Assembly (NCBI GenBank): GCA_032718475.1
Contig: JAUCBJ010005181.1
Coordinates: 17,657 to 81,656 of the forward strand
Direction of reading: 5' to 3'
Origin: Nemertoderma westbladi
Taxonomy: Eukaryota; Animalia; Xenacoelomorpha
DNA: 64,000 bases
The notes below the pieces were generated by a model, which was not told where the DNA came from, made no database searches, and saw only the letters and a list, made by a program, of their open reading frames with translations. Each line of letters begins with the position of its first letter. Within the stretch, counting starts at the first letter, position 1. This document shows positions 868 to 64,000 of this stretch, in pieces. The translations under genes and the position numbers were made by a program.

Positions 868-3800
868 ATGGGATACAGAAATCTGGTAATGGCTAATCAT
901 TTAACAAGTAGACGACTGGCCGCGCAAGAATTTCTACTGAACATCTCCCTTGATGGAATGGTAGCTTCGAGTCGTGATAATAACATCAGCGAAAACAGCC
1001 GAAATTCCGTCAATCTAGATTCAATTTACAAAGATCTTTATCGAGAGATTCCTCTTCCCTCACAAAACGCGAACGAACCAACTAATAAACTTAGCAAAAA
1101 CGATTCCAAGTCTGCTGGTAAACATTTGTCTGTAGACACCCAATGTTCTATAGATACGGGCACTTCCTCCGGTGCAACTAGTTGCCTCACAACGCCGGTC
1201 CCCCGGTACGCGCCGGGTCTATTCGTTCCCAAAATATGTTTCCTCCCCGACTCGAAACACAATCAACTCGCGCGAACCTTCAAAGACGAAGTCAACAATA
1301 AACAAGCGCGTATCGCCATGGCTACCCGGAACCGGAATCCCTATCTAGTCTACTCAATAATTGCCTACGCGAAGTCGGACAGGGGCGATAAACCCTCGAG
1401 GCATTATTCTATTGTGAAGCCGGTCGAGTCGTCTGGGAGCTGTGGAGGGCTGCTGGCCGGGGTCGAACTCGGTACCTCCACTAAGGTTGTTTCCTACGCC
1501 GACTACCTACAACCTACAACGTTGTGGCAGGATCACACCGACAAACTGCCGTTTTATCAGGAACAGGTTGGCTATAATTGCGACTTTGCCATAAGTTGTA
1601 TTATTGTCTTGTAGTAAAAGTTGTTTCATCACTGCTTGGCAGCTTGGAGACTGTTCAGCTGTAGGATGGCTAAAACGTCTGTCCTTATCTGATCTGATCT
1701 GATCAAATAAAATAAGCTATAAATCTTAAATTTGTTTTTAGCGGCTGGTGCCAAATTTTGGTGCCCCTGTGAAGAATACCGCCCATGTGAAGAATACCAG
1801 GATTTCACTTTTCGGTCGACTTTTACTGGAATTTTATTTATGAAGATTTTAAAATTTATCTTTATTGAGTGTATTATAGAGCTTATTTATGTCTTATAAC
1901 CTGTAAATATACTAATTTGTTTATTGTTTTGGTTATATTCAGCCGTTCTGTAACCTGTGTTTTTGGTGAAAACCTGGTATTCTTCACATGGGGGTAACTG
2001 CAAAGTGAAATATAACGGCAGAAAGTCTGGTATTCTTCGCCCATGTAAAGAATACCAGGATTTCACTCTTCGGTCGATTTTTTATTGGTCGATATTTTTT
2101 ATTAAATTTATCTTTATTAAGTGTTTTATGCGCGTGCGCGATGTCCTTTATTTTTTGAGGGGGATGATCTATTGATCAGTCAGTCGGACGGTCAGTAAGA
2201 AGGTGGGTGTAAACAAGCCGACGCGGTAACCTGCTCCTTTCCCTCAATTTGTAGGTAAAACGTCGTTTATTGTTTTGGTTAGAAATTACAGCCGCTGTAA
2301 CCTGCTCTTTTCCTTCAATTGGAAGGTAACAACAACGTTTATTAATTCCCACATTCCCATCCACCTTCCCATATTCCTTCATCGTCTGAGTATAAACTCC
2401 ACTGTATCAGCTGGCAATATGGGGCATGTTAAGTGTTTCGTCATATACAATACATACACACTACACAGTAGGCCTAGAGAGATACCCCTTCCTGCCTTCC
2501 CTTTAGCTGTTTAGCGTAACAAACAAACAATAAATATTTTAAATGTAATGTATTAATAAGTATCAATACTTAATTAATAATATTAATTATAATTAATATA
2601 ATTAACTTTAAGGATTAATAGTGATAACTATTAACAATAAAGATTTACGAAAATATTGCAGCAAAGGCTGTATTGTTTTTAATACCGGTAAATGTTTAAT
2701 GTTTCAACACCAACTAAATCTACGAAAGTTGTTTACAACTGAAACTATCCATCTCTGCTGGGACAATCACACAACTTTCATACCCGCCATCCTTCATCCT
2801 ATATCACATTTTTTATATATATTAATATGCCTTTGTTCATTAGATGCATACCGGTATGCCTGTACTGCTATGTCATATGATGATAATACTGATACATAAA
2901 CAGGCAACGTGAAACGTGATCCCCTATTCAGCTATTGGTTATTTATCTAACAGACAGTTAGGTAAATATTATATCTCTTTCTCCTGATTGGTTAGGCCTA
3001 TAGGATCAGATGCTGTCAGATCAGATCAGATAAGGACAGACGTTTTATTCTACCTCGTTCAGCTGTTAGGCCTACCAATAAGAACCAGACATGCTAAGTG
3101 TAGCCTGTAATGTAGGGTATTGCTGTATTGGGAAGCTGGACAATTCCATAAATTAACATACGGTTTTGGGACAATTAATAGTCTCATAAAGGGGTATAAT
3201 TACTTATTGAGGGAAAGGAGCTAGTTACAGAGGCAGGCTTTTCTAACCAAAACAATAAACGGCCACTTTACTGCTTTCCCAATTGAGGGAAAGGAGCAGG
3301 TTACTGAGGCGGGATTTTCTAACCAAAACAATAAACGGCGACTTTACTGCTTTACCAATTAAGGGAAAGGAGCAGGTTACTGAGGCGGGATTTTCTAACC
3401 AAAACAATAAACGCCCACTTTACTGCTTTACCAATTGAGGGAAAGGAGCAGGTTACAGAGGCAGGCTTTTCTAACCAAAACAATAAACGGCCACTTTACT
3501 GCTTTACCAATTGAGGGAAAGGAGCAGGTTACCGGGTACTGAGGCGGGATTTTCTACCCAAAACAATAAACGGCCACTTTACTGCTTTCCCAATTGAGGG
3601 AAAGGAGCAGGTTACTGAGGCGGGATTTTCTAACCAAAACAATAAACGGCCACTTTACTGCTTTACCAATTAAGGGAAAGGAGCAGGTTACTGAGGCGGG
3701 ATTTTCTAACCAAAACAATAAACGGTCACTTTACTGCTTTACCAATTAAGGGAAAGGAGCAGGTTACTGAGGCGGGATTTTCTAACCAAAACAATAAACG

Positions 3801-6800
3801 GCCACTTTACTGCTTTACCAATTGAGGGAAAGGAGCAGGTTACAGAGGCAGGCTTTTCTAACCAAAACAATAAACGGCCACTTTACTGCTTTACCAATTG
3901 AGGGAAAGGAGCAGGTTACCGGGTACTGAGGCGGGATTTTCTAACCAAAACAATAAACGGCCACTTTACTGCTTTCCCAATTGAGGGAAAGGAGCAGGTT
4001 ACTGAGGCGGGATTTTCTAACCAAAACAATAAACGGCCACTTTACTGCTTTACCAATTAAGGGAAACGAGCAGGTTACTGAGGCGGGATTTTCTAACCAA
4101 AACAATAAACGCCCACTTTACTGCTTTACCAATTGAGGGAAAGGAGCAGGTTACAGAGGCAGGCTTTTCTAACCAAAACAATAAACGGCCACTTTACTGC
4201 TTTACCAATTGAGGGAAAGGAGCAGGTTACAGAAGCAGGCTTTTCTAACCAAAGCAATAAACGATCACTTTACCACTTTAGGGAAAGTAGCAGGTTACTG
4301 AGGCGGGATTTTCTAACCAAAACAATAAACGATCATTTTACCAATTGAGGGAAACATGGTCAGACAGTCAGTAGTCACTCTATAAGTACTGAAGTATAAC
4401 CAAACCAAATCAGGCAGTCAAGCAATAGGTACCGGTACGCAGTTGTAGAATGACAATTAGAAACGGCTGAAAAGGTCGCTCCCCAAAGTGACAAGACCCC
4501 CATAAAATATTATTTTTAATAATAACACTATATATTTCTTAGTTCGAAATGAATCCGCTACATTTCCTTAAGGATCGTTACGGATCCCAGCTAAACGTAT
4601 CCGATCCGTTACAATTCTACGATCCAACCTACCTCGACGACCCGTTACTCCAGAGCGGCAAACACAAAACCGTATGCAACTTCAGCTCCTACACCGTCTC
4701 TTTCATAGACTACGCGAAACCATGCGAACTCAAGAAGTCCCTCAACGCCAAGTTCAGGTCCCAGTTCCCGGGGATACAACTCTCGCTCACAAAGATACGG
4801 AGTCTCAAAAGGGAACTGGTTCGTATCGGTTCCTCGTGCGGTGTGGAACTAGCCGTAGTCGCACAGGGGTTCGTTTATTTCGAGAAGGTTGTGTTGCAGC
4901 AACGGGTGACGAAACAGAATAGAAAACTCGTAGCTGGTAGGTTAGGGAACAGAAAACTCGTAGCTGGTTGGTTAGGGAACAGAAAACTCGTAGCTGGTAG
5001 GTTAGGAAACGGAAAACTCGTAGCTGGTAGGTTAGGGAACAGAAAACTTGTAGCTGGTTGGTTAGGGAACAGAAAACTCGTAGCTGGTAGGTTGGGGAAC
5101 AGAAAACTCGTAGCTGGTAGGTTAGGGAACAGAAAACTTGTAGCTGGTTGGTTAGGGAACAGAAAACTCGTAGCTGGTTGGTTAGGGAACAGAAAACTCG
5201 TAGCTGGTAGGTTAGGAAACGGAAAACTCGTAGCTGGTAGGTTAAGGAACAGAAAACTCGTAGCTGGTAGGTTAGGAAACGGAAAACTCGTAGCTGGTAG
5301 GTTAGGAAACGGAAAACTCGTAGCTGGTAGGTTAAGGAACAGAAAACTCGTAGCTGGTAGGTTAGGAAACGGAAAACTCGTAGCTGGTAGGTTAGGGAAC
5401 AGAAAACTTGTAGCTGGTTGGTTAGGGAACAGAAAACTCGTAGCTGGTAGGTTGGGGAACAGAAAACTCGTAGCTGGTAGGTTAGGAAACGGAAAACTCG
5501 TAGCTGGTAGGTTAGGAAACAGAAAACTTGTAGCTGGTTGGTTAGGGAACAGAAAACTCGTAGCTGGTAGGTTGGGGAACAGAAAACTCGTAGCTGGTAG
5601 GTTAGGGAACAGAAAACTCGTAGCTGGTAGGTTGGGGAACAGAAAACTCGTAGCTGGTAGGTTAGGGAACAGAAAACTCGTAGCTGGTAGGTTGGGGAAC
5701 AGGAAACTCGTAGCTGGTAGGTTAGGAAACGGAAAACTCGTAGCTGGTAGGTTGGGGAACAGAAAACTCGTAGCTGGTTGGTTTAGGTAAGAGAACAGAA
5801 AACTCGTAGCTTGTAGGTTAGGAAACAGAAAACTCGTAGCTGGTAGGTTAAGGAACAGAAAACTCGTAGCTGGTAGGTTAGGAAACGGAAAACTCGTAGC
5901 TGGTAGGTTAGGGAACAGAAAACTTGTAGCTGGTTGGTTAGGGAACAGAAAACTCGTAGCTGGTAGGTTGGGGAACAGAAAACTCGTAGCTGGTAGGTTA
6001 GGGAACAGAAAACTCGTAGCTGGTAGGTTGGGGAACAGAGAACTCGTAGCTGGTAGGTTAGGGAACAGAAAACTCGTAGCTGGTAGGTTGGGGAACAGAA
6101 AACTCGTAGCTGGTAGGTTAGGAAACGGAAAACTCGTAGCTGGTAGGTTGGGGAACAGAAAACTCGTAGCTGGTTGGTTTAGGTAAGAGAACAGAAAACT
6201 CGTAGCTTGTAGGTTAGGAAACAGAAAACTCGTAGCTGGTAGGTTAGGGAACAGAAAACTCGTAGCTGGTAGGTTAGGGAACAGAAAACTCGTAGCTGGT
6301 AGGTTAGGAAACGGAAAACTCGTAGCTGGTAGGTTAGGGAACAGAAAACTCGTAGCTGGTAGGTTAGGGAACAGAAAACTCGTAGCTGGTTGGTTAGGAA
6401 ACGGAAAACTCGTAGCTGGTAGGTTAGGGAACAGAAAACTCGTAGCTGGTAGGTTAGGGAACAGAAAACTCGTAGCTGGTAGGTTAGGAAACGGAAAACT
6501 CGTAGCTGGTAGGTTGGGAAACAGAAAACTCGTAGCTGGTAGGTTAGGAAACAGAAAACTCGTAGCTGGTAGGTTAGGGAACAGAAAACTCGTAGCTGGT
6601 AGGTTGGGGAACAGAAAACTCGTAGCTGGTTGGTTAGGGAACAAACTCGTAGCTGGTAGGTTAGGGAACAGAAACTCGTAGCTGGTAGGTTAGGAAACGG
6701 AAAACTCGTAGCTGGTAGGTTAGGAAACAGAAAACTCGTAGCTGGTAGGTTAGGAAACGGAAAACTCGTAGCTGGTAGGTTGGGGAACAGAAAACTCGTA

Positions 6801-9800
6801 GCTGGTAGGTTAGGAAACGGAAAACTCGTAGCTGGTAGGTTAGGGAACAGAAAACTCGTAGCTGGTAGGTTAGGAAACGGAAAACTCGTAGCTGGTAGGT
6901 TAGGGAAACAGAAAACTCGTAGCTGGTAGGTTAGGGAACAGAAAACTCGTAGCTGGTAGGTTAGGGAACAGAAAACTCGTAGCTGGTAGGTTAGGAAACG
7001 GAAAACTCGTAGCTGGTAGGTTAGGAAACAGAAAACTCGTAGCTGGTAGGTTAGGAAACGGAAAACTCGTAGCTGGTAGGTTGGGGAACAGAAAACTCGT
7101 AGCTGGTAGGTTAGGGAACAGAAAACTCGTAGCTGGTAGGTTGGGGAACAGAAAACTCGTAGCTGGTAGGTTAGGAAACGGAAAACTCGTAGCTGGTAGG
7201 TTGGGGAACAGAAAACTCGTAGCTGGTTGGTTTAGGTAAGAGAACAGAAAACTCGTAGCTTGTAGGTTAGGAAACAGAAAACTCGTAGCTGGTAGGTTAA
7301 GGAACAGAAAACTCGTAGCTGGTAGGTTAGGAAACGGAAAACTCGTAGCTGGTAGGTTAGGGAACAGAAAACTTGTAGCTGGTTGGTTAGGGAACAGAAA
7401 ACTCGTAGCTGGTAGGTTGGGGAACAGAAAACTCGTAGCTGGTAGGTTAGGGAACAGAAAACTCGTAGCTGGTAGGTTGGGGAACAGAAAACTCGTAGCT
7501 GGTAGGTTAGGGAACAGAAAAGTCGTAGCTGGTAGGTTGGGGAACAGAAAACTCGTAGCTGGTAGGTTAGGAAACGGAAAACTCGTAGCTGGTAGGTTGG
7601 GGAACAGAAAACTCGTAGCTGGTTGGTTTAGGTAAGAGAACAGAAAACTCGTAGCTTGTAGGTTAGGAAACAGAAAACTCGTAGCTGGTAGGTTAGGAAA
7701 CGGAAAACTCGTAGCTGGTAGGTTAGGGAACAGAAAACTCGTAGCTGGTAGGTTGGGGAACAGAAAACTCGTAGCTGGTATGTTAGGAAACAGAAAACTC
7801 GTAGCTGGTAGGTTAGGGAACAGAAAACTCGTAGCTGGTAGGTTAGGGAACAGAAAACTCGTAGCTGGTAGGTTAGGAAACGGAAAACTCGTAGCTGGTA
7901 GGTTGGGAAACAGAAAACTCGTAGCTGGTAGGTTAGGAAACGGAAAACTCGTAGCTGGTAGGTTGGGGAACAGAAAACTCGTAGCTGGTAGGTTAGGGAA
8001 CAGAAAACTCGTAGCTGGTAGGTTGGGGAACAGAAAACTCGTAGCTGGTAGGTTAGGAAACGGAAAACTCGTAGCTGGTAGGTTGGGGAACAGAAAACTC
8101 GTAGCTGGTTGGTTTAGGTAAGAGAACAGAAAACTCGTAGCTTGTAGGTTAGGAAACAGAAAACTCGTAGCTGGTAGGTTAGGAAACGGAAAACTCGTAG
8201 CTGGTAGGTTAGGTAACAGAAAACTTGTAGCTGGTAGGTTAGGAAACGTAAAACTCGTAGCTGGTAGGTTAAGGAACAGAAAACTCGTAGCTGGTAGGTT
8301 AGGGAACAGAAAACTCGTAGCTGGTTGGTTAGGGAACAGAAAACTCGTAGCTGGTAGGTTAGGAAACGGAAAACTCGTAGCTGGTAGGTTAGGGAACAGA
8401 AAACTCGTAGCTGGTAGGTTAGGGAACAGAAAACTCGTAGCTGGTTGGTTAGGAATCGGAAAACTCGTAGCTGGTAGGTTAGGGAACAGAAAACTCGTAG
8501 CTGGTAGGTTAGGGAACAGAAAACTCGTAGCTGGTTTGTTTAGGAAACAGAAAACTCGTAGCTGGTTTGTTTAGGAAACAGAAAACTCGTAGCTGGTAGG
8601 TTAGGAAACGGAAAACTCGTAGCTGGTAGGTTAGGAAACAGAAAACTCGTAGCTGGTAGGTTAGGAAACGGAAAACTCGTAGCTGGTAGGTTAGGGAACA
8701 GAAAGGTCGTAGCTGGTAGGTTAGGAAACAGAAAACTCGTAGCTGGTAGGTTAGGAAACGGAAAACTCGTAGCTGGTAGGTTAGGAAACGGAAAACTCGT
8801 AGCTGGTTGGTTAGGGAACAGAAAACGTGTAGCTGGTAGGTTAGGAAACGGAAAACTCGTAGCTGGTAGGTTAGGGAACAGAAAACTCGTAGCTGGTTGG
8901 TTGGGGAATAGAAAATTTGTAGCTGGTAGGTTAGGAAACGGAAAACTCGTAGCTGGTAGGTTGGAGAACAGAAAACTCGTAGCTGGTTGGTTTAGGTAAG
9001 AGAACAGAAAACTCGTAGCTTGTAGGTTAGGAAACAGAAAACTCGTAGCTGGTAGGTTAGGAAACAGAAAACTCGTAGCTGGTAGGTTAGGAAACGGAAA
9101 ACTCGTAGCTGGTAGGTTGGGAAACAGAAAACTCGTAGCTGGCAAGTTAGGAAACAGAAAACTCGTAGCTGGTAGGTTATGGAACAGAAAACTCGTAGCT
9201 GGTAGGTTGGGGAACAGAAAACTCGTAGCTGGTAGGTTAGGGAACAGAAAACTCGTAGCTGGTAGGTTGGGGAACAGAAAACTCGTAGCTGGTAGGTTAG
9301 GGAACAGAAAAGTCGTAGCTGGTAGGTTGGGGAACAGAAAACTCGTAGCTGGTAGGTTAGGAAACGGAAAACTCGTAGCTGGTAGGTTGGGGAACAGAAA
9401 ACTCGTAGCTGGTTGGTTTAGGTAAGAGAACAGAAAACTCGTAGCTTGTAGGTTAGGAAACAGAAAACTCGTAGCTGGTAGGTTAGGAAACGGAAAACTC
9501 GTAGCTGGTAGGTTAGGGAACAGAAAACTCGTAGCTGGTAGGTTGGGGAACAGAAAACTCGTAGCTGGTATGTTAGGAAACAGAAAACTCGTAGCTGGTA
9601 GGTTAGGGAACAGAAAACTCGTAGCTGGTAGGTTAGGGAACAGAAAACTCGTAGCTGGTAGGTTAGGAAACGGAAAACTCGTAGCTGGTAGGTTGGGAAA
9701 CAGAAAACTCGTAGCTGGTAGGTTAGGAAACGGAAAACTCGTAGCTGGTAGGTTGGGGAACAGAAAACTCGTAGCTGGTAGGTTAGGGAACAGAAAACTC

Positions 9801-12800
9801 GTAGCTGGTAGGTTGGGGAACAGAAAACTCGTAGCTGGTAGGTTAGGAAACGGAAAACTCGTAGCTGGTAGGTTGGGGAACAGAAAACTCGTAGCTGGTT
9901 GGTTTAGGTAAGAGAACAGAAAACTCGTAGCTTGTAGGTTAGGAAACAGAAAACTCGTAGCTGGTAGGTTAGGAAACGGAAAACTCGTAGCTGGTAGGTT
10001 AGGTAACAGAAAACTTGTAGCTGGTAGGTTAGGAAACGTAAAACTCGTAGCTGGTAGGTTAAGGAACAGAAAACTCGTAGCTGGTAGGTTAGGGAACAGA
10101 AAACTCGTAGCTGGTTGGTTAGGGAACAGAAAACTCGTAGCTGGTAGGTTAGGAAACGGAAAACTCGTAGCTGGTAGGTTAGGGAACAGAAAACTCGTAG
10201 CTGGTAGGTTAGGGAACAGAAAACTCGTAGCTGGTTGGTTAGGAATCGGAAAACTCGTAGCTGGTAGGTTAGGGAACAGAAAACTCGTAGCTGGTAGGTT
10301 AGGGAACAGAAAACTCGTAGCTGGTTTGTTTAGGAAACAGAAAACTCGTAGCTGGTTTGTTTAGGAAACAGAAAACTCGTAGCTGGTAGGTTAGGAAACG
10401 GAAAACTCGTAGCTGGTAGGTTAGGAAACAGAAAACTCGTAGCTGGTAGGTTAGGAAACGGAAAACTCGTAGCTGGTAGGTTAGGGAACAGAAAGGTCGT
10501 AGCTGGTAGGTTAGGAAACAGAAAACTCGTAGCTGGTAGGTTAGGAAACGGAAAACTCGTAGCTGGTAGGTTAGGAAACGGAAAACTCGTAGCTGGTTGG
10601 TTAGGGAACAGAAAACGTGTAGCTGGTAGGTTAGGAAACGGAAAACTCGTAGCTGGTAGGTTAGGGAACAGAAAACTCGTAGCTGGTTGGTTGGGGAATA
10701 GAAAATTTGTAGCTGGTAGGTTAGGAAACGGAAAACTCGTAGCTGGTAGGTTGGAGAACAGAAAACTCGTAGCTGGTTGGTTTAGGTAAGAGAACAGAAA
10801 ACTCGTAGCTTGTAGGTTAGGAAACAGAAAACTCGTAGCTGGTAGGTTAGGAAACAGAAAACTCGTAGCTGGTAGGTTAGGAAACGGAAAACTCGTAGCT
10901 GGTAGGTTGGGAAACAGAAAACTCGTAGCTGGCAAGTTAGGAAACAGAAAACTCGTAGCTGGTAGGTTATGGAACAGAAAACTCGTAGCTGGTAGGTTGG
11001 GGAACAGAAAACTCGTAGCTGGTTGGTTAGGGAACAGAAACTCGTAGCTGGTAGGTTAGGAAACGGAAAACTCGTAGCTGGTAGGTTGGGAAACAGAAAA
11101 CTCGTAGCTGGTAGGTTAGGAAACGGAAAACTCGTAGCTGGTAGGTTGGGGAACAGAAAACTCGTAGCTGGTAGGTTAGGAAACCGAAAACTCGTAGCTG
11201 GTAGGTTAGGGAACAGAAACTCGTAGCTGGTAGGTTAGGAAACGGAAAACTCGTAGCTGGTAGGTTGGGAAACAGAAAACTCGTAGCTGGTAGGTTAGGG
11301 AACAGAAAACTCGTAGCTGGTAGGTTAGGGAACATAAAACTCGTAGCTGGTAGGTTAGGAAACGGAAAACTCGTAGCTGGTAGGTTGGGGAACAGAAAAC
11401 TCGTAGCTGGTAGGTTAGGAAACAGAAAACTCGTAGCTGGTAGGTTAGGGAACAGAAAACTCGTAGCTGGTAGGTTAGGGAACAGAAAACTCGTAGCTGG
11501 TTGGTTAGGGAACAGAAACTCGTAGCTGGTAGGTTAGGAAACGGAAAACTCGTAGCTGGTAGGTTGGGAAACAGAAAACTCGTAGCTGGTAGGTTAGGAA
11601 ACGGAAAACTCGTAGCTGGTAGGTTGGGGAACAGAAAACTCGTAGCTGGTTGGTTAGGGAACAGAAACTCGTAGCTGGTAGGTTAGGGAACAGAAACTCG
11701 TAGCTGGTAGGTTAGGAAACGGAAAACTCGTAGCTGGTAGGTTAGGGAACAGAAAACAAACTCGTAGCTGGTAGGTAAGAGAACAGAAAACTCGTAGCTT
11801 GTAGGTTAGGAAACAGAAAACTCGTAGCTGGTTGGTTAGGGAACAGAAAACTTGTAGCTGGTAGGTTAGGAAACGGAAAACTCGTAGCTGGTAGGTTAGG
11901 GAACAGAAAACTCGTAGCTGGTTGGTTAGGGAACAGAAAACTTGTAGCTGGTAGGTTAGGAAACGGAAAACTCGTAGCTGGTAGGTTAGGGAACATAAAA
12001 CTCGTAGCTGGTAGGTTGGGGAACAGAAAACTCGTAGCTGGTAGGTTAGGGAACAGAAAACTCGTAGCTGGTTGGTTAGGGAACATAAAACTTGTAGCTG
12101 GTAGGTTAGGAAACGGAAAACTCGTAGCTGGTAGGTTAGGGAACAGAAAACTCGTAGCTGGTAGGTTAGGGAACAGAAAACTCGTAGCTGGTTGGTTAGG
12201 GAACAGAAAACTCGTAGCTGGTTTGTTTAGGAAACAGAAAACTCGTAGCTGGTAGGTTAGGAAACGGAAACTCGTAGCTGGTAGGTTAGGAAACGGAAAA
12301 CTCGTAGCTGGTTGGTTAGGGAACAGAAAACTTGTAGCTGGTAGGTTAGGAAACGGAAAACTCGTAGCTGGTAGGTTAGGGAACAGAAAACTCGTAGCTG
12401 GTAGGTTAGGGAACAGAAAACTCGTAGCTGGTAGGTTAGGGAACAGAAAACTTGTAGCTGGTAGGTTAGGAAACGAAAAACTCGTAGCTGGTAGGTTAGG
12501 GAACAGAAAACTCGTAGCTGGTAGGTTAGGGAACAGAAAACTCGTAGCTGGTTGGTTAGGGAACAGAAAACTTGTAGCTGGTAGGTTAGGAAACGGAAAA
12601 CTCGTAGCTGGTATGTTAGGGAACAGAAAACTCGTAGCTGGTAGGTTGGGGAACAGAAAACTCGTAGCTGGTAGGTTAGGGAACAGAAAACTCGTAGCTG
12701 GTTGGTTAGGGAACATAAAACTTGTAGCTGGTAGGTTAGGAAACGGAAAACTCGTAGCTGGTAGGTTAGGGAACAGAAAACTCGTAGCTGGTAGGTTAGG

Positions 12801-15800
12801 GAACAGAAAACTCGTAGCTGGTTGGTTAGGGAACAGAAAACTCGTAGCTGGTTTGTTTAGGAAACAGAAAACTCGTAGCTGGTAGGTTAGGAAACGGAAA
12901 ACTCGTAGCTGGTAGGTTAGGAAACAGAAAACTCGTAGCTGGTAGGTTAGAAAACGGAAAACTCGTAGCTGGTAGGTTAGGGAACAGAAAGGTCGTAGCT
13001 GGTAGGTTAGGAAACAGAAAACTCGTAGCTGGTAGGTTAGGTAACAGAAAACTTGTAGCTGGTAGGTTAGGAAACGGAAAACTCGTAGCTGGTAGGTTAA
13101 GGAACAGAAAACTCGTAGCTGGTAGGTTAGGGAACAGAAAGGTCGTAGCTGGTAGGTTGGGGAACAGAAAACTCGTAGCTGGTAGGTTAGGAAACGGAAA
13201 ACTCGTAGCTGGTAGGTTAGGGAACATAAAACTCGTAGCTGGTAGGTTAGGGAACAGAAAACTCGTAGCTGGTTGGTTAGGGAACAGAAAACTCGAAGCT
13301 GGTAGGTTAGGGAACAGAAAACTCGTAGCTGGTAGGTTAGTGAACAGAAAACTCGTAGCTGGTTGGTTAGGAAACGGAAAACTCGTAGCTGGTAGGTTAG
13401 GTAACAGAAAACTTGTAGCTGGTAGGTTAGGAAACGTAAAACTCGTAGCTGGTAGGTTAAGGAACAGAAAACTCGTAGCTGGTAGGTTAGGGAACAGAAA
13501 ACTCGTAGCTGGTTGGTTAGGGAACAGAAAACTCGTAGCTGGTAGGTTAGGAAACGGAAAACTCGTAGCTGGTAGGTTAGGGAACAGAAAACTCGTAGCT
13601 GGTAGGTTAGGGAACAGAAAACTCGTAGCTGGTTGGTTAGGAATCGGAAAACTCGTAGCTGGTAGGTTAGGGAACAGAAAACTCGTAGCTGGTAGGTTAG
13701 GGAACAGAAAACTCGTAGCTGGTTTGTTTAGGAAACAGAAAACTCGTAGCTGGTTTGTTTAGGAAACAGAAAACTCGTAGCTGGTAGGTTAGGAAACGGA
13801 AAACTCGTAGCTGGTAGGTTAGGAAACAGAAAACTCGTAGCTGGTAGGTTAGGAAACGGAAAACTCGTAGCTGGTAGGTTAGGGAACAGAAAGGTCGTAG
13901 CTGGTAGGTTAGGAAACAGAAAACTCGTAGCTGGTAGGTTAGGAAACGGAAAACTCGTAGCTGGTAGGTTAGGAAACGGAAAACTCGTAGCTGGTTGGTT
14001 AGGGAACAGAAAACTTGTAGCTGGTAGGTTAGGAAACGGAAAACTCGTAGCTGGTAGGTTAGGGAACAGAAAACTCGTAGCTGGTTGGTTGGGGAATAGA
14101 AAATTTGTAGCTGGTAGGTTAGGAAACGGAAAACTCGTAGCTGGTAGGTTAGGGAACAGAAAACTCGTAGCTGGTTGGTAAGGGAACAGAAAACTCGTAG
14201 CTGGTTGGTTAGGGAACAGAAAACTCGTAGCTGGTAGGTTAGGAAACGGAAAACTCGTAGCTGGTAGGTTAGGGAACAGAAAACTCGTAGCTGGTAGGTT
14301 AGGGAACAGAAAACTCGTAGCTGGTTGGTTAGGGAACAGAAAACTCGTAGCTGGTAGGTTAGGGAACAGAAAACTCGTAGCTGGTTGGTTAGGGAACAGA
14401 AAACTCGTAGCTGGTTGGTTAGAGAACAGAAAACTCGTAGCTGGTTGGTTAGGGAACAGAAAACTTGTAGCTGGTAGGTTAGGAAACGGAAAACTCGTAG
14501 CTGGTAGGTTAGGGAACAGAAAACTCGTAGCTGGTTGGTTAGGGAACAGAAAACTTGTAGCTGGTAGGTTAGGAAACGGAAAACTCGTAGCTGGTAGGTT
14601 AGGGAACAGAAAACTCGTAGCTGGTAGGTTAGGGAACAGAAAACTCGTAGCTGGTTGGTTAGGGAACATAAAACTTGTAGCTGGTAGGTTAGGAAACGGA
14701 AAACTCGTAGCTGGTAGGTTAGGGAACAGAAAACTCGTAGCTGGTAGGTTAGGGAACAGAAAACTCGTAGCTGGTTGGTTAGGGAACAGAAAACTCGTAG
14801 CTGGTTTGTTTAGGAAACAGAAAACTCGTAGCTGGTAGGTTAGGAAACGGAAAACTCGTAGCTGGTAGGTTAGGAAACAGAAAACTCGTAGCTGGTAGGT
14901 TAGGAAACGGAAAACTCGTAGCTGGTAGGTTAGGGAACAGAAAGGTCGTAGCTGGTAGGTTAGGAAACAGAAAACTCGTAGCTGGTAGGTTAGGTAACAG
15001 AAAACTTGTAGCTGGTAGGTTAGGAAACGGAAAACTCGTAGCTGGTAGGTTAAGGAACAGAAAACTCGTAGCTGGTAGGTTAGGGAACAGAAAGGTCGTA
15101 GCTGGTAGGTTGGGGAACAGAAAACTCGTAGCTGGTAGGTTAGGAAACGGAAAACTCGTAGCTGGTAGGTTAGGGAACAGAAAACTCGTAGCTGGTAGGT
15201 TAGGGAACAGAAAACTCGTAGCTGGTTGGTTAGGGAACAGAAAACTCGAAGCTGGTAGGTTAGGGAACAGAAAACTCGTAACTGGTAGGTTAGAGAACAG
15301 AAAACTCGTAGCTGGTAGGTTAGAGAACAGAAAGGTCGTAGCTGGTAGGTTGGGGAACAGAAAACTCGTAGCTGGTAGGTTAGGAAACGGAAAACTCGTA
15401 GCTGGTAGGTTAGGGAACAGAAAACTCGTAGCTGGTTGGTTAGGAAACGGAAAACTCGTAGCTGGTAGGTTAGGTAACAGAAAACTTGTAGCTGGTAGGT
15501 TAGGAAACGGAAAACTCGTAGCTGGTAGGTTAAGGAACAGAAAACTCGTAGCTGGTAGGTTAGGGAACAGAAAACTCGTAGCTGGTTGGTTAGGGAACAG
15601 AAAACTCGTAGCTGGTAGGTTAGGAAACGGAAAACTCGTAGCTGGTAGGTTAGGGAACAGAAAACTCGTAGCTGGTAGGTTAGGGAACAGAAAACTCGTA
15701 GCTGGTTGGTTAGGAAACGGAAAACTCGTAGCTGGTAGGTTAGGGAACAGAAAACTCGTAGCTGGTAGGTTAGGGAACAGAAAACTCGTAGCTGGTTTGT

Positions 15801-18800
15801 TTAGGAAACAGAAAACTCGTAGCTGGTTTGTTTAGGAAACAGAAAACTCGTAGCTGGTAGGTTAGGGAACAGAAAACTCGTAGCTGGTTTGTTTAGGAAA
15901 CAGAAAACTCGTAGCTGGTTTGTTTAGGAAACAGAAAACTCGTAGCTGGTAGGTTAGGAAACGGAAAACTCGTAGCTGGTAGGTTAGGAAACAGAAAACT
16001 CGTAGCTGGTAGGTTAGGAAACGGAAAACTCGTAGCTGGTAGGTTAGGGAACAGAAAGGTCGTAGCTGGTAGGTTAGGAAACAGAAAACTCGTAGCTGGT
16101 AGGTTAGGAAACGGAAAACTCGTAGCTGGTAGGTTAGGAAACGGAAAACTCGTAGCTGATTGGTTAGGGAATAGAAAACTTGTAGCTGGTAGGTTAGGAA
16201 ACGGAAAACTCGTAGCTGGTAGGTTAGGGAACAGAAAACTCGTAGCTGGTTGGTTGGGGAACAGAAAATTTGTAGCTGGTAGGTTAGGAAACGGAAAACT
16301 CGTAGCTGGTAGGTTAGGGAACAGAAAACTCGTAGCTGGTTGGTTAGGGAACAGAAAACTCGTAGCTGGTTGGTTAGGGAACAGAAAACTCGTAGCTGGT
16401 AGGTTAGGAAACGGAAAACTCGTAGCTGGTAGGTTAGGGAACAGAAAACTCGTAGCTGGTAGGTTAGGGAACAGAAAACTCGTAGCTGGTAGGTTAGGGA
16501 ACAGAAAGGTCGTAGCTGGTAGGTTAGGAAACAGAAAACTCGTAGCTGGTAGGTTAGGAAACGGAAAACTCGTAGCTGGTAGGTTAGGAAACGGAAAACT
16601 CGTAGCTGATTGGTTAGGGAATAGAAAACTTGTAGCTGGTAGGTTAGGAAACGGAAAACTCGTAGCTGGTAGGTTAGGGAACAGAAAACTCGTAGCTGGT
16701 TGGTTGGGGAACAGAAAATTTGTAGCTGGTAGGTTAGGAAACGGAAAACTCGTAGCTGGTAGGTTAGGGAACAGAAAACTCGTAGCTGGTTGGTTAGGGA
16801 ACAGAAAACTCGTAGCTGGTTGGTTAGGGAACAGAAAACTCGTAGCTGGTAGGTTAGGAAACGGAAAACTCGTAGCTGGTAGGTTAGGGAACAGAAAACT
16901 CGTAGCTGGTAGGTTAGGGAACAGAAAACTCGTAGCAGGTTGGTTAGGGAACAGAAAACTCGTAGCTGGTAGGTTAGGGAACAGAAAACTCGTAGCTGGT
17001 TGGTTAGGGAACAGAAAGGTCGTAGCTGGTAGGTTAGGGAAGAGAAAACTCGTAGCTGGTAGGTTAGGTAACAGAAAACTTGTAGCTGGTAGGTTAGGAA
17101 ACGGAAAACTCGTAGCTGGTAGGTTAAGGAACAGAAAACTCGTAGCTGGTAGGTTAGGGAACAGAAAGGTCGTAGCTGGTAGGTTGGGGAACAGAAAACT
17201 CGTAGCTGGTAGGTTAGGAAACGGAAAACTCGTAGCTGGTAGGTTAGGGAACAGAAAACTCGTAGCTGGTAGGTTAGGGAACAGAAAACTCGTAGCTGGT
17301 TGGTTAGGGAACAGAAAACTCGAAGCTGGTAGGTTAGGGAACAGAAACCTCGTAGCTGGTAGGTTAGGGAACAGAAAACTCGTAGCTGGTTGGTTAGGAA
17401 ACGGAAAACTCGTAGCTGGTAGGTTAGGTAACAGAAAACTTGTAGCTGGTAGGTTAGGAAACGGAAAACTCGTAGCTGGTAGGTTAAGGAACAGAAAACT
17501 CGTAGCTGGTAGGTTAGGGAACAGAAAACTCGTAGCTGGTTGGTTAGGGAACAGAAAACTCGTAGCTGGTAGGTTAGGAAACGGAAAACTCGTAGCTGGT
17601 AGGTTAGGGAACAGAAAACTCGTAGCTGGTAGGTTAGGGAACAGAAAACTCGTAGCTGGTAGGTTAGGGAACAGAAAACTCGTAGCTGGTTGGTTAGGAA
17701 ACGGAAAACTCGTAGCTGGTAGGTTAGGGAACAGAAAACTCGTAGCTGGTAGGTTAGGGAACAGAAAACTCGTAGCTGGTTTGTTTAGGAAACAGAAAAC
17801 TCGTAGCTGGTTTGTTTAGGAAACAGAAAACTCGTAGCTGGTAGGTTAGGAAACGGAAAACTCGTAGCTGGTAGGTTAGGAAACAGAAAACTCGTAGCTG
17901 GTAGGTTAGGAAACGGAAAACTCGTAGCTGGTAGGTTAGGGAACAGAAAGGTCGTAGCTGGTAGGTTAGGAAACAGAAAACTCGTAGCTGGTAGGTTAGG
18001 AAACGGAAAACTCGTAGCTGGTAGGTTAGGAAACGGAAAACTCGTAGCTGATTGGTTAGGGAACAGAAAACGTGTAGCTGGTAGGTTAGGAAACGGAAAA
18101 CTCGTAGCTGGTAGGTTAGGGAACAGAAAACTCGTAGCTGGTTGGTTGGGGAACAGAAAATTTGTAGCTGGTAGGTTAGGAAACGGAAAACTCGTAGCTG
18201 GTAGGTTAGGGAACAGAAAACTCGTAGCTGGTTGGTTAGGGAACAGAAAACTCGTAGCTGGTTGGTTAGGGAACAGAAAACTTGTAGCTGGTAGGTTACG
18301 GAACAGAAAACTCGTAGCTGGTTGGTTAGGGAACAGAAAACTCGTAGCTGGTAGGTTAGGGAACAGAAAACTCGTAGCTGGTTGGTTAGGGAACAGAAAA
18401 CTCGTAGCTGGTAGGTTAGGAAACGGAAAACTCGTAGCTGGTAGGTTAGGGAACAGAAAACTCGTAGCTGGTAGGTTACGGAACAGAAAACTCGTAGCTG
18501 GTTGGTTAGGGAACAGAAAACTCGTAGCTGGTAGGTTAGGGAACAGAAAACTCGTAGCTGGTTGGTTAGGGAACAGAAAACTCGTAGCTGGTTGGTTAGG
18601 GAACAGAAAACTCGTAGCTGGTAGGTTAGGGAAGAGAAAACTCGTAGCTGGTAGGTTAGGGAAGAGAAAACTCGTAGCTGGTAGGTTAGGGTACAGAAAA
18701 CTCGTAGCTGGTAGGTTAGGAAACGGAAAACTCGTAGCTGGTAGGTTAGGAAACGGAAAACTCGTAGCTGGTAGGTTAGGGAACAGAAAACTTGTAGCTG

Positions 18801-20414
18801 GTAGGTTAGGAAATGGAAAACTCGTAGCTGGTAGGTTAGGAAGCAGAAAACTCGTAGCTGGTAGGTTAGGAAACGGAAAACTCGTAGCTGGTAGGTTAGG
18901 AAGCAGAAAACTCGTAGCTGGTAGGTTAGGAAACAGAAAACTCGTAGCTGGTAGGTTAGGAAACGGAAAACTCGTAGCTGGTAGGTTCGGAAGCAGAAAA
19001 CTCGTAGCTGGTAGGTTAGGAAACAGAAAACTCGTAGCTGGTAGGTTAGGAAACGGAAAACTCGTAGCTGGTAGGTTAGGAAACGGAAAACTCGTAGCTG
19101 GTAGGTTAGGAAGCAGAAAACTCGTAGCTGGTAGGTTAGGAAACGGAAAACTCGTAGCTGGTAGGTTAGGAAGCAGAAAACTCGTAGCTGGTAGGTTAGG
19201 GAACAGAAAGGTCGTAGCTGGTAGGTTAGGAAACAGAACTACCGTAAGTTCGTATAGAAAAACAATACATATTTTTTATAAGCATTTTGCTGATAATGAT
19301 GCACCTTAAGGGGGGTATCACCCCAAATCTATTTTTTTATTATTTTTATAGCTACTGTTCTGAAACTTTAACACAATTATCTGTGATCTTTAACTAAGAA
19401 AACTGAGATACCTTCGCAAACCATTTTGTTTGTAAAATATGGGACTTTTTGTGCAACAAGTCGGTTTTTTTCAAAATTTGTAAAGATTTTGAGGATTTTA
19501 ATGAAAAATATCTCATGTAGAAGGATCTGTAGTACCAACCGGGTTGCAGTTCTCGGTCCAAGAGTTTGGCCCAATGAACCTAGATTTTTTTTATGTAGGT
19601 TATCTTTTGTGAAAATTTCAACACAAAACTATTGGTATTTGAAAAATTTATGGGGGTTTTAGTATGTTCGGGCTATATTTCGGGCATCATATATTTTGAG
19701 ATAGACAAGAAGAAGCAATTACATAATGGATCATAGAACATCCAAATTGACATATGTTACAAAACCAATACTAAGGATTGTAGCCCTATAGATGCTGAAC
19801 ATTTTGGTATATGTTTGATAAAAATTGAGTGAAAAATAAAAAAGTAGTAGGGAATTTAGTGATGATAATCGGCAAACTGAGAAAAAGGTTGTTTTATGCA
19901 GAGAGTCATGAATATTAGCTATAAATTGTTATTGAAAAGTTCTGTTTTGTGGTGGAAAATTATTCAATGGTCAAAACCGATGTCACCACGTGAAAGCCCT
20001 TCTATCAAACCACAAAATTAGAAGAAAAAAAAATTTTCAGGAAATTTTAAAATTTTGCAGTCGCAGGGGGTGATACCCCCCTTAAAATCGGAAAACACAT
20101 TTAATAAATCTGATGAAAAAAAAAAGACTGGGGAAAGACTGGGGGATTTTTTACATTATTATTATTTACCGCCCATATTTCCTATCTATGTTTTCATCAC
20201 TCTAGGTGTCACCCTCATACTCTCGGCTAAGATGAACGACACACGCGGACCGGATTTGGTGAAACTCATAACTACCATATGTTCCACCTACCGTTGTAGT
20301 CACAGAGACCTCATAGCGATGGAGTTCCCCGTCATTGTTTCTTTAGAGTTTCGGTTATTAGTTCCACATTGGGAGGTTCTCTCCCATTATAATAGACTAA
20401 CACACCGCACCTAG
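868..20414 (+). CDS. CABLES: CABLES (CDK5 and ABL1 enzyme substrate) cyclin-box protein; exons 868-1566, 4543-4936, 20206-20414; ~433 aa
   Basis: N-terminal SRRLAAQEFLLNISLDG resembles the CABLES motif RRQAALSFLxNISLDG. Exon 2 has YDPTYLDDP..GKHKTV..SY..FIDYAKP.ELKK.LN..F...LSLTKIRSLKREL..FVYFEKVVL..KQNRKLVAG. Exon 3 has VTLILSAK..DLIAMEFPVIVSLEFRL..HYNRL. Splice sites are phase-consistent: CAG|GTTGGC..TTCTTAG| (phase 0) and GCTG|GTAGGT..TCTAG| (phase 1). AATAAA at 20510. Confidence 0.92.
1671..3047. repeat. 32-bp perfect inverted repeat pair in CABLES intron 1 (1671-1702 and 3016-3047)
   Basis: TAAAACGTCTGTCCTTATCTGATCTGATCTGA and its exact reverse complement ~1.3 kb apart; possible MITE, TSD unclear. 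Confidence 0.55.
3205..4352 (+). repeat. 76-bp tandem array (~15 copies) of a short interspersed element
   Basis: Unit AATTGAGGGAAAGGAGCAGGTTACTGAGGCGGGATTTTCTAACCAAAACAATAAACGGCCACTTTACTGCTTTACC, period 76; single diverged copies occur elsewhere in the window. Confidence 0.92.
4918..19238 (+). repeat. 30-bp minisatellite (~477 units) derived from the CABLES exon-2/intron-2 junction
   Basis: Consensus AACAGAAAACTCGTAGCTG|GTAGGTTAGGG = last 19 nt of exon 2 plus first 11 nt of intron 2, with few variant units. Confidence 0.97.
19310..20081. mobile_element. Kolobok-type non-autonomous DNA transposon (MITE), 772 bp
   Basis: 15-bp TIR GGGGGGTATCACCCC / GGGGTGATACCCCCC flanked by TTAA on both sides; purine (GG) termini with a TTAA TSD fit Kolobok rather than piggyBac (CC termini). 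Confidence 0.8.
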
Positions 20415-21417
20415 ACCATGATACATATATGCTGCTCTATTGTCAGCATTTATTTTTGTGCTAGTCTACAGTAACCCGCGTTTGGTGCTTATTTTTTTAC
20501 AAACATTCTAATAAATATGTCAATTTTATAATATATAATATATCTATGAATATCAACCGATCTCAACACTTTCATACAACAACAAGTTATTTTAACGGGC
20601 TGTTGAGGTAAGCTCTATTGAAGTAAGCTCTGGTGGGTCAATTAGCATTCTGGTTCAATCCAAGTGGTGTGGCATGCCTTATATTTATTATTCGTAGCCC
20701 CAACACGTGTGAGCCTTAGTAAATTCGTTATTCATGAACAAAATTGTCTCAAGTCAGCGGTTTATGTATTTCTGTGTATTTCAGTCAAGAGTTCTAAAGG
20801 ACATGCAGACTATGATCTTTATTAGTTTTGACAATTATGTTGTAATTGCCCGATGTTACATTACTGGCTAAATCTGAGTGAGAATTCTGCGATTATTAAA
20901 ATTGTTTGTTAGTAAAATTGTGGAAGTTACAAAAGAGCGAACAGATAATGAGAACAAAATAAGATTTATCAATTGCCAAATTTAAACCATCAGTAAAAAA
21001 CAGTTGAATTCCTTCCCAACAGTCCCTTTCCAATAACTGAATAATGTTGTAGTTCGAGTGGTCTAACATATCGTGTCTGCAGTGTGGTGTTGGGTTTGGC
21101 AATAAGCTTCTGCTACAGAGGTTATACAATGCCTCGTTGTGAAGTGAGCATAGCATCCTTCTCTCCTATGTCATGAACCCTGCGAGACATCCTGGTTTAT
21201 GGCCTGCCATCTGTATACCATCGAGGGATAAGGTGTGTATTTTTCATTGAGAGCCAGCATGGGCTACTCAGGTTCTACTGCTGCCTGAAATAATGAAATT
21301 CGCTGTTTCCATTACCACGTTATGATGGAAACAGCGAGAGACCCCTTGGTTTAATGGTTAACAACAGAGGGACCGAAGTAAAATACTGCACTGTATTCAT
21401 AATATGAAGGGGAGAAT

Positions 21418-22599
21418 CTTTCTTTTTGGCTCATTAAGCCAAGGAATGCCTGTTCACCACCATAGTTGATCTTCCACAGTAAACCCTTCCACTATGTTTC
21501 CTAAAGTAATGCCTGTTCACCACCATGGTTGATCTTCCACAGTAAACCCTTCCACTACGTTTCCTAAAGGAATGCATGTTCACCATCATGGGTGATCTTC
21601 CACAGTAAACCCTTCCACTACGTTTCCTAAAGGAATGCATGTTCACCACCATGGGTTATCTTCCACAGTAAACCCTTCCACTCTGCCTCCTAAAGAAATG
21701 CCTGTTCACCACCATGAAGGGTATTCTTCCACAGTAAACTCTTCCACGTTTCTTAAAGAAATGCCTATTCACCACCATGGGTGATCTTCCACAGTAAACC
21801 TGTCCACTGTGTTTCCTAAAGGAATGCCTGTTCACCACCTTGGGAGATCTTCCACAGTAAACTCTTCCACTCTGTTTCCTGAAGAAATGCCTGTTCACCA
21901 CCATGGGTGATCTTCCACAGTAAACCCTTCCAGTCTGTTTCCTAAAGAAATGCCTGTTAACCACCATGGTTGATCTTCCACAGTAAACCCTTCCACTCTG
22001 TTTCCTAAAGAAATGCCTGTTCACCACCATGGGTGATCTTCCACAGTAAACCCTTCCACTCTGTTTCCTAAAGAAATGCCTGTTCACCACCATGGGTGAT
22101 CTTCCACAGTAAACCCTTCCAGTCTGTTTCCTAAAGAAATGCCTGTTCACCACCATGGTTGATCTTCCACAGTAAACCCTTCCACTCTGTTTCCTAAAGA
22201 AATGCCTGTTCACCACCATGGGTGATCTTCCACAGTAAACCCTTCCACGCTGTTTCCTAAAGGAATGCGGTGATCTTCCATAGTAAACTCTTCCACTCTG
22301 TTTCCTAAAGGAATACCTGTTCACCACCATGGGTTATCTTCCACAGTAAACCCTCCCACTCTGTTTCCTAAAGGAATGCCTGTTCACCACCTTGGGTGAT
22401 CTTCCACAGGAAACCGTTCCACTCTGTTTCCCAAGTTGCTTTGGTTCCCATTTATCGACCAGTTAAGGATGAAAGCCAGGGTTGGGCTAGGCTGCAGCAT
22501 TTAAAGCACTGTGCCAAAACAGTGCTGACCTATCTAGGGATCGAACCAGTGCCTCCTGATTGGAAACCCAGGAATGTCACCACTAGACCAAGCTGCTGC
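21418..22599 (-). mobile_element. tRNA-derived SINE (Nin/Deu-like core) expanded by an internal minisatellite
   Basis: Minus strand: A box TGGTCTAGTGG (22580-22590), B box GGTTCGATCCC (22537-22547), then CTTTCATCCTT..GGTCGATAAATGGGAACCA resembling the Nin/Deu SINE core; A-rich tail near 21418-21428. Confidence 0.65.
21441..22432. repeat. 63-bp tandem repeat (~16 copies)
   Basis: Unit GGAATGCCTGTTCACCACCATGGGTGATCTTCCACAGTAAACCCTTCCACTCTGTTTCCTAAA. Confidence 0.93.
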
Positions 22600-22926
22600 A
22601 ATATAATAGTCAAATTAGGTATTTAGTAGGCCTATAAAATATTTTCAGATCGGCCTCACCTCGCAGCTATATTATACAGTATATAACATAGTTGTGTGGC
22701 AATTTTGGATAATGAGAAAGTAACAAGTGTCAACCCATTAACTGAAGTCCATTAATAAATTTATCGATACTGTAAGTAAAATATCACGATAACGTTTCGG
22801 CATCACGTAAAGAAAAAATAATGTGGTATCCATTAATTAATACACACTTTTGATATAGAATTTGGCATTTATTAGTATTAATTGCATTTGATATTTGCTT
22901 TCGCATAAATTTACTTCATTGTTTTC

Positions 22927-22933
22927 TATATAA
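22927..22933 (+). promoter_or_regulatory. Candidate TATA box of astacin copy 1
   Basis: TATATAA ~110 nt upstream of the ATG at 23036; also present in copy 2. Confidence 0.45.
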
Positions 22934-23035
22934 GAGGGTAAATTATCCAGTTGACACCATTGACATTTTTTGTTGCAAATTCGGGAAAATCTACAGTAAT
23001 AAATCTCGCTTTGTTAAAACTACCACAAAGACACC

Positions 23036-40051: not shown

Positions 40052-40169
40052 GTTTGATTGTACAGTTGAATGCCTACTACTATAACGACAGTTAAAGCAA
40101 ATCTAGTAATTTAGTATTAACTGTAAGCCTAGTAATTAATTACCGATATCGTTACTCAATGTAACGCGA

Positions 40170-63898: not shown

Positions 63899-64000
63899 AG
63901 GCGACGCAGCCGGGGGCCACGCGGGAGAAGGCGACGCAGCCGGGGGCCGCGCGGGCGAAGGCGACGCAGCCAGGGGCCACGCGGGCGAATGCGACGCAGC
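63540..64000. repeat. GC-rich 30-bp tandem repeat (~15 copies in window) encoding (PARPPAASPS)n
   Basis: Unit GCGACGCAGCCGGGGGCCGCGCGGGCGAAG. Confidence 0.93.

What the first reader, a model, noticed from the sequence alone, without database searches (positions are those of the whole stretch)
4918..19238. A 14-kb array of ~477 copies of a 5' splice site: the CABLES exon/intron junction amplified into a satellite
Seen: the unit is exactly the last 19 nt of exon 2 plus the first 11 nt of intron 2, so nearly every unit carries CTG|GTAGGT or CTG|GTTGGT. The unit is 10 codons long. The first 29 donors (4937+30k, up to 5777) are in frame and precede the first stop (TAA 5788-5790), so using them would insert 0-28 GRLGNRKLVA decapeptides into the cyclin box; later donors would include a premature stop. 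Established: the exon-3 sequence follows NRKLxAG directly in CABLES, so only the first donor gives the canonical protein. Inference: the spliceosome must pick one donor among ~477 near-identical competitors, or the array acts as a length-tunable isoform/NMD dial or a U1 snRNP sink.
Basis: partly seen in the sequence, partly recalled or inferred. Interest (0 to 1): 0.85.

Follow-up and report, generated by a model that had tools for sequence, protein, structure and literature searches.

The report
Giant splice-donor minisatellite in CABLES intron
A 30-base piece spanning the end of an exon and its splice signal is repeated 475 times into the next intron of an animal CABLES gene, but the one transcript assembly available splices at the first signal, so this is likely a large, tolerated case of a repeat type already known from human and lancelet genes rather than an isoform switch.

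Summary
The array is real: 4917-19238, 30-bp unit, 475 donor positions, 470 with GT, 365 identical to the true donor; only donors 1-29 keep an open frame. The gene is a three-exon CABLES (426 aa). One public run that behaves as RNA (two spliced junctions, untemplated poly(A), unique introns uncovered) joins exon 2 to exon 3 at donor 1, recognisable by a base that the exon has and the repeats lack. That junction contig is as deep as exon 2 (about 3,900); the only repeat contig is at 18; no later-donor contig was laid (contigs drop rare forms). DNA runs show the unit strongly amplified. The unit likely arose by slippage between two AGAA words 30 nt apart and grew by block duplication. This is a known kind: human F7, IFI6, CBS, LMNB2, PDGF, ABCA7 (up to about 427 copies) and lancelet 'mirages'. 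The scan has noted the same thing on other DNA: 21 notes from this genome, several from other animals. The isoform dial and U1 sink are not supported. What remains open is why this genome seems to seed satellites at exon edges so often.

The parts
889..1566 (+). CABLES exon 1, coding part (start ATG inferred; phase-0 donor after 1566)
   Evidence: ORF; N-terminal motif aligns with lancelet and fish CABLES; exon 1 end joined to exon 2 in X4 contig
4543..4936 (+). CABLES exon 2 (394 nt), first part of the cyclin box, ends ...NRKLVA-G
   Evidence: 426 homologues with E<=0.001, best 51% identity; both ends spliced in X4
4934..4942 (+). Authentic 5' splice site CTG|GTAGGT (intron starts 4937), the donor seen in use
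   Evidence: X4 loose ends at 4938 and 20205
4917..19238 (+). 30-bp junction-spanning minisatellite, 475 donor positions, 58 unit types, mean pairwise identity 93%
4937..5790 (+). In-frame stretch of the array: donors 2-29 would add GRLGNRKLVA-like decapeptides; stop TAA 5788-5790 in a 36-nt variant unit
7391..11023 (+). Exact 1,843-bp block repeated at an offset of 1,790 bp (60 units): recent block duplication or assembly over-expansion
19221..19238 (+). Last donor and array end; intron bases +15..+18 (AGAA) match exon bases -16..-13, the likely slippage seed
   Evidence: X2 contig bridges array end into unique intron, 19184-19301
19306..20085 (.). TTAA-flanked, high-copy element with short G/C terminal inverted repeats filling most of the rest of intron 2
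   Evidence: ends; depth in the thousands in DNA runs
20206..20560 (+). CABLES exon 3: coding to stop 20412-20414, 3' UTR, poly(A) added after 20560
   Evidence: weak Cyclin_N hit E 0.005; alignment; untemplated A-run in X4

Best explanation
The array is a junction-spanning ('mirage') minisatellite: a 30-base piece across the CABLES exon 2 donor, likely first duplicated by slippage between two AGAA words and likely expanded by repeated block duplication, which the gene likely tolerates because splicing uses the first donor, as seen in the one transcript assembly. Shown: the unit, its copy number and variant blocks, the AGAA match at a 30-nt distance, and the donor-1 junction. Inferred: (1) origin by microhomology slippage at the DNA level, not through cDNA, since no unit carries the spliced exon 2-exon 3 junction; (2) growth by unequal exchange or conversion; (3) donor 1 wins because it is transcribed first and closes a 394-nt exon (exon definition or 5'-to-3' scanning, as shown experimentally for human F7); the 769 UAGG and 190 UAGGGA words in the array would be hnRNP A1-type sites that could add to decoy silencing; (4) the 10-codon, stop-free frame is a coincidence; (5) the array is close to neutral, having swollen an intron of about 200 nt to 15.3 kb together with one inserted element.
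For: X4 holds an exon 1-exon 2 contig (depth 3,874) and an exon 2-exon 3 junction contig (depth about 3,914 by arithmetic) whose exon side carries the exon-specific T at -17, i.e. donor 1. All 10 pieces laid for X4 on 4360-4977 are accounted for; the only array piece is a 90-nt pure-repeat contig at depth 18.4, about 0.5% of exon depth although many units collapse into it. Only donor 1 gives the spacing seen in homologues: 117 of 120 have NRKL followed 12 residues later by AAKI, the other 3 lack the literal NRKL. A 60-unit exact block recurs, against at most 7 units in 200 shuffles of unit order. No selection signal on donors: 7 of 35 variant alleles fall in the 9 donor positions (p 0.27) and 15 of 35 in the 16 exon-derived positions (p 0.24). 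0 copies of the spliced-junction motif in the array. Precedents: F7 uses only the most upstream of 5-9 identical donors; lancelet mirages do not disturb splicing; ABCA7 donor VNTR reaches about 427 copies.
Against: One RNA-like sample, listed as 'DNA?' with no library record, of unknown tissue and unknown array length; contigs drop rare variants and their depth is a poor measure of expression (tool caveats). The two X4 contigs break exactly at the donor (overlap 4908-4937), which implies an unlaid side branch there. NMD would hide donors 30-475. In IFI6, CBS and ABCA7 the second or third donor is used at a detectable level, and ABCA7 length changes exon skipping 3-4-fold, so 'neutral' is not guaranteed. 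The selection test has little power (35 alleles). The seed microhomology is only 4 exact bases. F7 and hnRNP A1 data are mammalian. The best AG in the array has 12 pyrimidines in 20 upstream bases, the same as the true exon 2 acceptor, so recursive removal is not excluded.
Confidence: 0.8

Rival explanations
1. The decoy donors stay unused, but array length tunes CABLES output indirectly, as the ABCA7 VNTR does, by slowing transcription or splicing of intron 2, promoting exon 2 skipping, or binding hnRNP A1-type proteins.
For: ABCA7: exon skipping rose 3.2-4.1-fold with allele length while use of the cryptic donor did not change. The array makes up 14.3 of 15.3 kb of the intron and holds 769 UAGG words, a motif reported as the hnRNP A1 site; intronic hnRNP A/B sites affect splicing of enlarged introns (abstract).
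Against: X4 shows the canonical three-exon message at even depth on exon 2 and the junction, and no skipping contig among the rows shown. No allele-length data.
Confidence: 0.12
2. The array is an isoform or NMD dial: donors 2-29 insert 1-28 decapeptides into the cyclin box and later donors send the message to decay.
For: Unit is 10 codons and stop-free in the exon frame; 29 donors give a full ORF; 365 donors have the same 9-mer as the true one; downstream donors are used in IFI6, CBS and ABCA7.
Against: No X4 contig links exon 2 to the array or a unit to exon 3; repeat depth 0.5% of exon depth. No insertion at this site in the 117 of 120 homologues scored. A unit length divisible by three has a one-in-three prior; the five unit lengths stated in the same-genome notes (52, 67, 44, 47, 29, unchecked) are none of them multiples of three.
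Confidence: 0.04
3. The nascent array acts as a U1 snRNP sink that changes splicing of other genes.
For: 470 GT donors per nascent transcript, 365 with 7 of 9 consensus matches; CABLES appears well expressed in X4.
Against: Repeat RNA is scarce at steady state in X4. One locus with a few nascent transcripts binds at most thousands of U1 against a pool recalled as about 10^5-10^6 per cell (from memory, mammalian figure).
Confidence: 0.02
4. The array is wholly or largely an assembly artefact.
For: An exact 1,843-bp block occurs twice; no read spanning the array was seen; X1 gave only about 11 times single-copy depth at the array end.
Against: X2 (same sample as X1) gave about 180 times and X3 about 385 times single-copy depth (rough, the tool warns this is no copy number, and one of these samples may be the assembly's source). 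An X2 contig bridges the array end into unique intron; X4, from a third study, holds three tandem units. 58 unit types in nested blocks are not what a collapsed or looped assembly produces.
Confidence: 0.02

Closest known systems
Human F7 intron 7 37-bp VNTR (PMC1557585; read: abstract, Introduction, Discussion), and the IFI6/6-16, CBS, LMNB2 and PDGF cases as described in its Introduction only
   Same: First unit spans the exon/intron boundary, so the donor is reiterated identically; only the most upstream donor is used in F7, LMNB2 and PDGF.
   Different: 5-26 copies there, 475 here; unit here is in frame; IFI6 and CBS also use two downstream donors, not seen here.
Human ABCA7 intron 18 25-bp VNTR (PMC5954066; read: 8 passages and the splicing results section)
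   Same: Each unit repeats the donor GT of the upstream exon; alleles up to 10,678 bp (about 427 copies), the same scale as this array.
   Different: ABCA7 unit starts at the GT and holds no exon sequence; it is out of frame; the second donor is used at a low level and length raises skipping of the next exon. No length effect could be tested here.
Amphioxus 'mirage' minisatellites: Adh3, troponin C, globins BflGb6/BflGb9, PGBD5 (PMC3087553, 6 passages; PMC3902484, 1 passage)
   Same: Invertebrate tandem duplications of exon/intron boundaries, 10-160 bp units, recurring in several genes of one genome, normal splicing, concerted turnover; generating mechanism stated as unclear.
   Different: 3-6 copies in BflGb6 against 475 here; nested higher-order blocks up to 1.8 kb here.
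Satellite-filled giant introns of Drosophila Y-linked fertility genes (PMC6508621, PMC11207136; search listing and abstract start only)
   Same: Intron swollen by tandem repeats yet spliced.
   Different: Megabase scale; that their satellites are simple sequences not derived from the gene's own splice junction is recalled, not read here.

Membership tests
Junction-spanning ('mirage') minisatellite | Tandem unit spans an exon/intron boundary and the first unit holds the authentic site | tested here: met
   Consensus matches junction -20..+10 at 29 of 30; donor 4937 confirmed by spliced contigs
Junction-spanning ('mirage') minisatellite | Minisatellite-sized unit (about 10-160 bp in the published cases) | tested here: met
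   Period 30; 440 of 474 spacings are exactly 30
Junction-spanning ('mirage') minisatellite | Many copies keep the splice signal | tested here: met
   470 of 475 keep GT
Junction-spanning ('mirage') minisatellite | Regular splicing at the authentic site is undisturbed | tested here: met
   One RNA-like run, contigs only: donor-1 junction at exon depth
Junction-spanning ('mirage') minisatellite | Concerted turnover within the cluster | tested here: met
   60-unit repeated block against at most 7 in 200 shuffles; further exact blocks of 312-650 bp
Junction-spanning ('mirage') minisatellite | Length instability between alleles or cells | tested here: inconclusive
   Depth ratios differ between runs, also between two runs of one sample (11 and 180 times); no allele lengths obtainable
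Alternative-donor VNTR (IFI6, CBS, ABCA7 type) | Downstream donors are used at a detectable level | tested here: inconclusive
   No such contig among 10 pieces laid for X4, but contigs drop rare forms
Alternative-donor VNTR (ABCA7 type) | Array length changes isoform ratios | not testable with these tools
   Needs matched allele lengths and RNA
CABLES (Cdk5 and Abl enzyme substrate) | C-terminal cyclin-like box homologous to CABLES1/2, with the N-terminal conserved motif | tested here: met
   426 hits among 558 candidates; named top hits are CABLES; three exons align end to end with 7 homologues; Pfam Cyclin_N only weak, E 0.005 on exon 3

The most novel reading that the evidence does not exclude
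This animal has a splicing-coupled mutational process (for example breaks or R-loops where the spliceosome assembles on nascent RNA, repaired by microhomology duplication) that seeds tandem repeats preferentially at exon edges and lets them grow to hundreds of copies. The CABLES array would be one of dozens of products, and the genome a natural experiment on how one splice site is chosen among hundreds of identical ones and on intron growth and gain.
Probability: 0.2. Interest if true: 0.7.

Novelty: new member of a known kind. Interest (0 to 1): 0.25.

Why it matters
As a single locus it extends a known rule, that the most upstream of identical donors wins, to 475 competitors in an invertebrate, about the size of the longest ABCA7 alleles. 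It would be a clean reporter for 5' splice-site choice: deleting donor 1 should hand splicing to the next units and add in-frame decapeptides. The larger question lies at genome level. If exon edges in this animal are true hotspots for satellite birth, that would link splicing to local mutation and explain the lancelet mirages, whose origin the literature calls unclear. That could not be tested from this window.

Tried and rejected
No whole genome is held, so no genome-wide scan for the unit or for junction enrichment was possible. The run search listed no holder on record as RNA; this blank is no evidence, and X4 was judged RNA only from what it showed when laid. X1 showed no cover on exon 2; a filter can cause this, so nothing is drawn from it. 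Depth as a copy-number estimate was tried and kept only as order of magnitude, because two runs of one sample differ 17-fold. A processed pseudogene as the source of the spliced X4 contigs was rejected: X4 has zero depth on unique flanks (4507-4527, 20623-21430) that a DNA run would cover. A cDNA origin of the unit was rejected: 0 spliced-junction motifs in the array. Selection for or against donors: no signal, low power; donor types are evenly spread over five fifths of the array. The other three CABLES junction flanks are not repeated in the window. Three-tier G-quadruplex motifs: 0; two-tier motifs: 124, not pursued. The in-frame repeat peptide hits only a compositional Pfam model below cut-off (HC2). 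Paper searches found no report of an invertebrate genome with junction arrays of hundreds of copies (0 papers; 2 unrelated; 14 listed, none opened; only the F7 and globin papers); the library lacks most subscription journals and bioRxiv supplements, so this is weak. Findings searches near this place and by sequence returned nothing. The species was not determined.
Full report
Observation. Tandem Repeats Finder gives one array at 4917-19238, period 30, 475.3 copies, 91% matches. Parsing on the donor motif gives 475 donor positions from 4937 to 19221; 440 of 474 spacings are 30 nt, the rest 27-36. 365 read CTG|GTAGGT, 76 CTG|GTTGGT, and 470 of 475 keep GT. 194 donors are in frame with exon 3 but only the first 29 (4937-5777) give a stop-free ORF; the first stop is TAA 5788-5790.

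The gene. Exon 2 (4543-4936) finds 426 homologues among 558 candidates; the named top hits are lancelet and fish CABLES at about 50% identity. Exons 889-1566, 4543-4936 and 20206-20414 give a 426-residue protein that aligns end to end with seven homologues and has no gap at the exon 2/3 joint. In 117 of the 120 listed homologues NRKL is followed 12 residues later by AAKI, the same register as donor 1 gives; 3 lack the literal NRKL. No close relative was found and the species was not determined.

Which donor is used. The run search listed eight runs, five holding the stretch or part of it, from three studies, none on record as RNA. Laid on 19179-21430, run X4 showed a loose end before 20205 that is the end of exon 2 including the exon-specific T at -17, and an A-run after 20560 that is not in the DNA. 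Laid on 4360-4977, X4 showed a 690-nt contig joining exon 1 to exon 2 (depth 3,874) and a loose end after 4938 that is exon 3. X4 has zero depth on unique intron and downstream DNA, so I treat it as RNA. From the binned depths the junction contig stands at about 3,914. All 10 pieces laid for X4 are accounted for: six belong to a dispersed repeat at 4407-4487, two are the spliced contigs, and two are the halves of one 90-nt pure-repeat contig at depth 18.4, 0.5% of exon depth. No contig runs from exon 2 into the array, and only one contig has a loose end at the acceptor. Any message using donors 2-29 would carry the exon-to-array path and would not be an NMD target, so a common ladder of isoforms is unlikely in this sample. 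Limits: one sample, contigs that drop rare forms, depth a poor measure, 13 and 462 loose-end rows not shown, and an unexplained contig break exactly at the donor.

Is the array real. At the array's last two units, summed depth was 4,946 in X2 and 13,232 in X3 against 27 and 34 on single-copy DNA; X1, the same sample as X2, gave only 346 against 32. These are order-of-magnitude figures, and one of the two DNA samples may be the assembly's source. An X2 contig bridges 19184-19301 from the array into unique intron, and X4 holds three tandem units, so, leaving out a possible source, two studies still hold the tandem unit. The length is unverified: an exact 1,843-bp block recurs at an offset of 1,790 bp, which could be a recent duplication or over-assembly of about 59 units.

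Origin and growth. After the last donor the sequence runs 18 bases in register and then becomes unique. Intron bases +15..+18 (AGAA) equal exon bases -16..-13, exactly 30 nt apart in a single-copy junction, and intron base +14 is the C that the units carry at '-17'. Slippage at this 4-base microhomology would produce precisely this unit (inference). No unit contains the spliced junction, which argues against a cDNA template. The 474 full units fall into 58 types whose order repeats in blocks of up to 60 units, against at most 7 in 200 shuffles: ordinary minisatellite turnover. Variant alleles are not depleted or enriched in the donor 9-mer (7 of 35, p 0.27) or the exon-derived 16 bases (15 of 35, p 0.24). 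Without the array and a TTAA-flanked element at 19306-20085, intron 2 would be about 200 nt instead of 15,269.

Why donor 1 would win (inferred). It is transcribed first and closes a 394-nt exon. [quoted passage not shown] The array also holds 769 UAGG and 190 UAGGGA words, reported hnRNP A1 sites, and hnRNP A1 favours the distal donor (PMC9634572, passages; PMC1326234, abstract); whether this applies here is untested. The array is 66% purine, but its best AG has as many upstream pyrimidines (12 of 20) as the true exon 2 acceptor, so recursive removal is not excluded.

Comparison with what is known. The F7 paper lists IFI6 (25 pseudo-donors, two used), CBS (15-20 repeats, two used), LMNB2 and PDGF (only the true donor used). 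Lancelet 'mirages' are the invertebrate form, do not disturb splicing, and have an origin described as unclear (PMC3087553; PMC3902484). The ABCA7 intron 18 VNTR repeats the donor GT in alleles of up to about 427 copies, with low use of the second donor and length-dependent skipping of the next exon (PMC5954066). So both the design and the scale have precedent. Searches found no paper on invertebrate arrays of this size, within a library that lacks most subscription journals.

Earlier notes of the scan. My reading was fixed before I opened them (stated). They list 21 distinct same-genome notes on junction-spanning arrays, with up to about 1,300 copies and up to ten junctions in one gene, and similar small arrays in other animals. 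They gave me the 'mirage' lead, whose papers I then read. I could not check those loci; they are AI notes, not independent evidence. One (GALNS) reports splicing from a variant copy inside the array, a reminder that use of internal donors can occur.

Verdict. A real, large but ordinary member of a known kind, most likely a tolerated passenger (0.8), with an indirect length effect the main rival (0.12). The isoform dial (0.04), U1 sink (0.02) and artefact (0.02) are poorly supported. Interest 0.25 for the locus. The bolder reading, a splicing-coupled process that seeds satellites at exon edges across this genome, stays open at about 0.2 and would deserve 0.7.

Noticed in passing
window 19306-20085: 772-bp high-copy element with TTAA target duplication and 15-bp terminal inverted repeats starting GG; the 'Kolobok-like' label is recalled, not tested. 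Depth in the thousands in DNA runs.
   Followed up: partly
window 3206-4331 and 2218-2322: 76-bp tandem array (14.7 copies) in CABLES intron 1 with an inverted, about 80% identical partial copy 900 bp upstream and a further partial match at 29046-29106; looks transposon-derived and is not a junction copy.
   Followed up: partly
window 5777-5790 and nine other units: Ten extra donor-like sites TAG|GTAAGA, nine in a 36-nt variant unit that also carries the first in-frame stop; they score as high as the true donor by consensus count and would be out of phase with exon 3.
   Followed up: no
window 4908-4937 (run X4): The exon 2 contig and the junction contig break one base earlier than an unspliced branch would predict, suggesting an unlaid low-level branch such as an alternative acceptor or an error tip.
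   Followed up: no
window 4937-19238: 191 units contain the telomere-type hexamer TTAGGG; 124 two-tier but no three-tier G-quadruplex motifs. Possible aid to instability.
   Followed up: no
window 21441-22431: 63-bp tandem array (about 15 copies) downstream of the CABLES poly(A) site.
   Followed up: no
window 22685-27745 and 45203-49500: About 4.3 kb of sequence duplicated at 95-97% identity in three blocks.
   Followed up: no
window 29809-40102 (-): Two BEL/Pao-type LTR retrotransposon remnants; Pao peptidase and aspartyl protease hits.
   Followed up: partly
window 56766-58670 (-), 60443-64000 (-), 54936-55205 (+): CACTA-like transposase fragment (below cut-off), a LINE endonuclease-reverse transcriptase ORF with a 30-bp coding repeat at its start, and a YHYH-domain exon.
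   Followed up: partly
window 889-20560: CABLES here has only two coding introns; vertebrate CABLES genes are recalled as having about nine, not checked.
   Followed up: no
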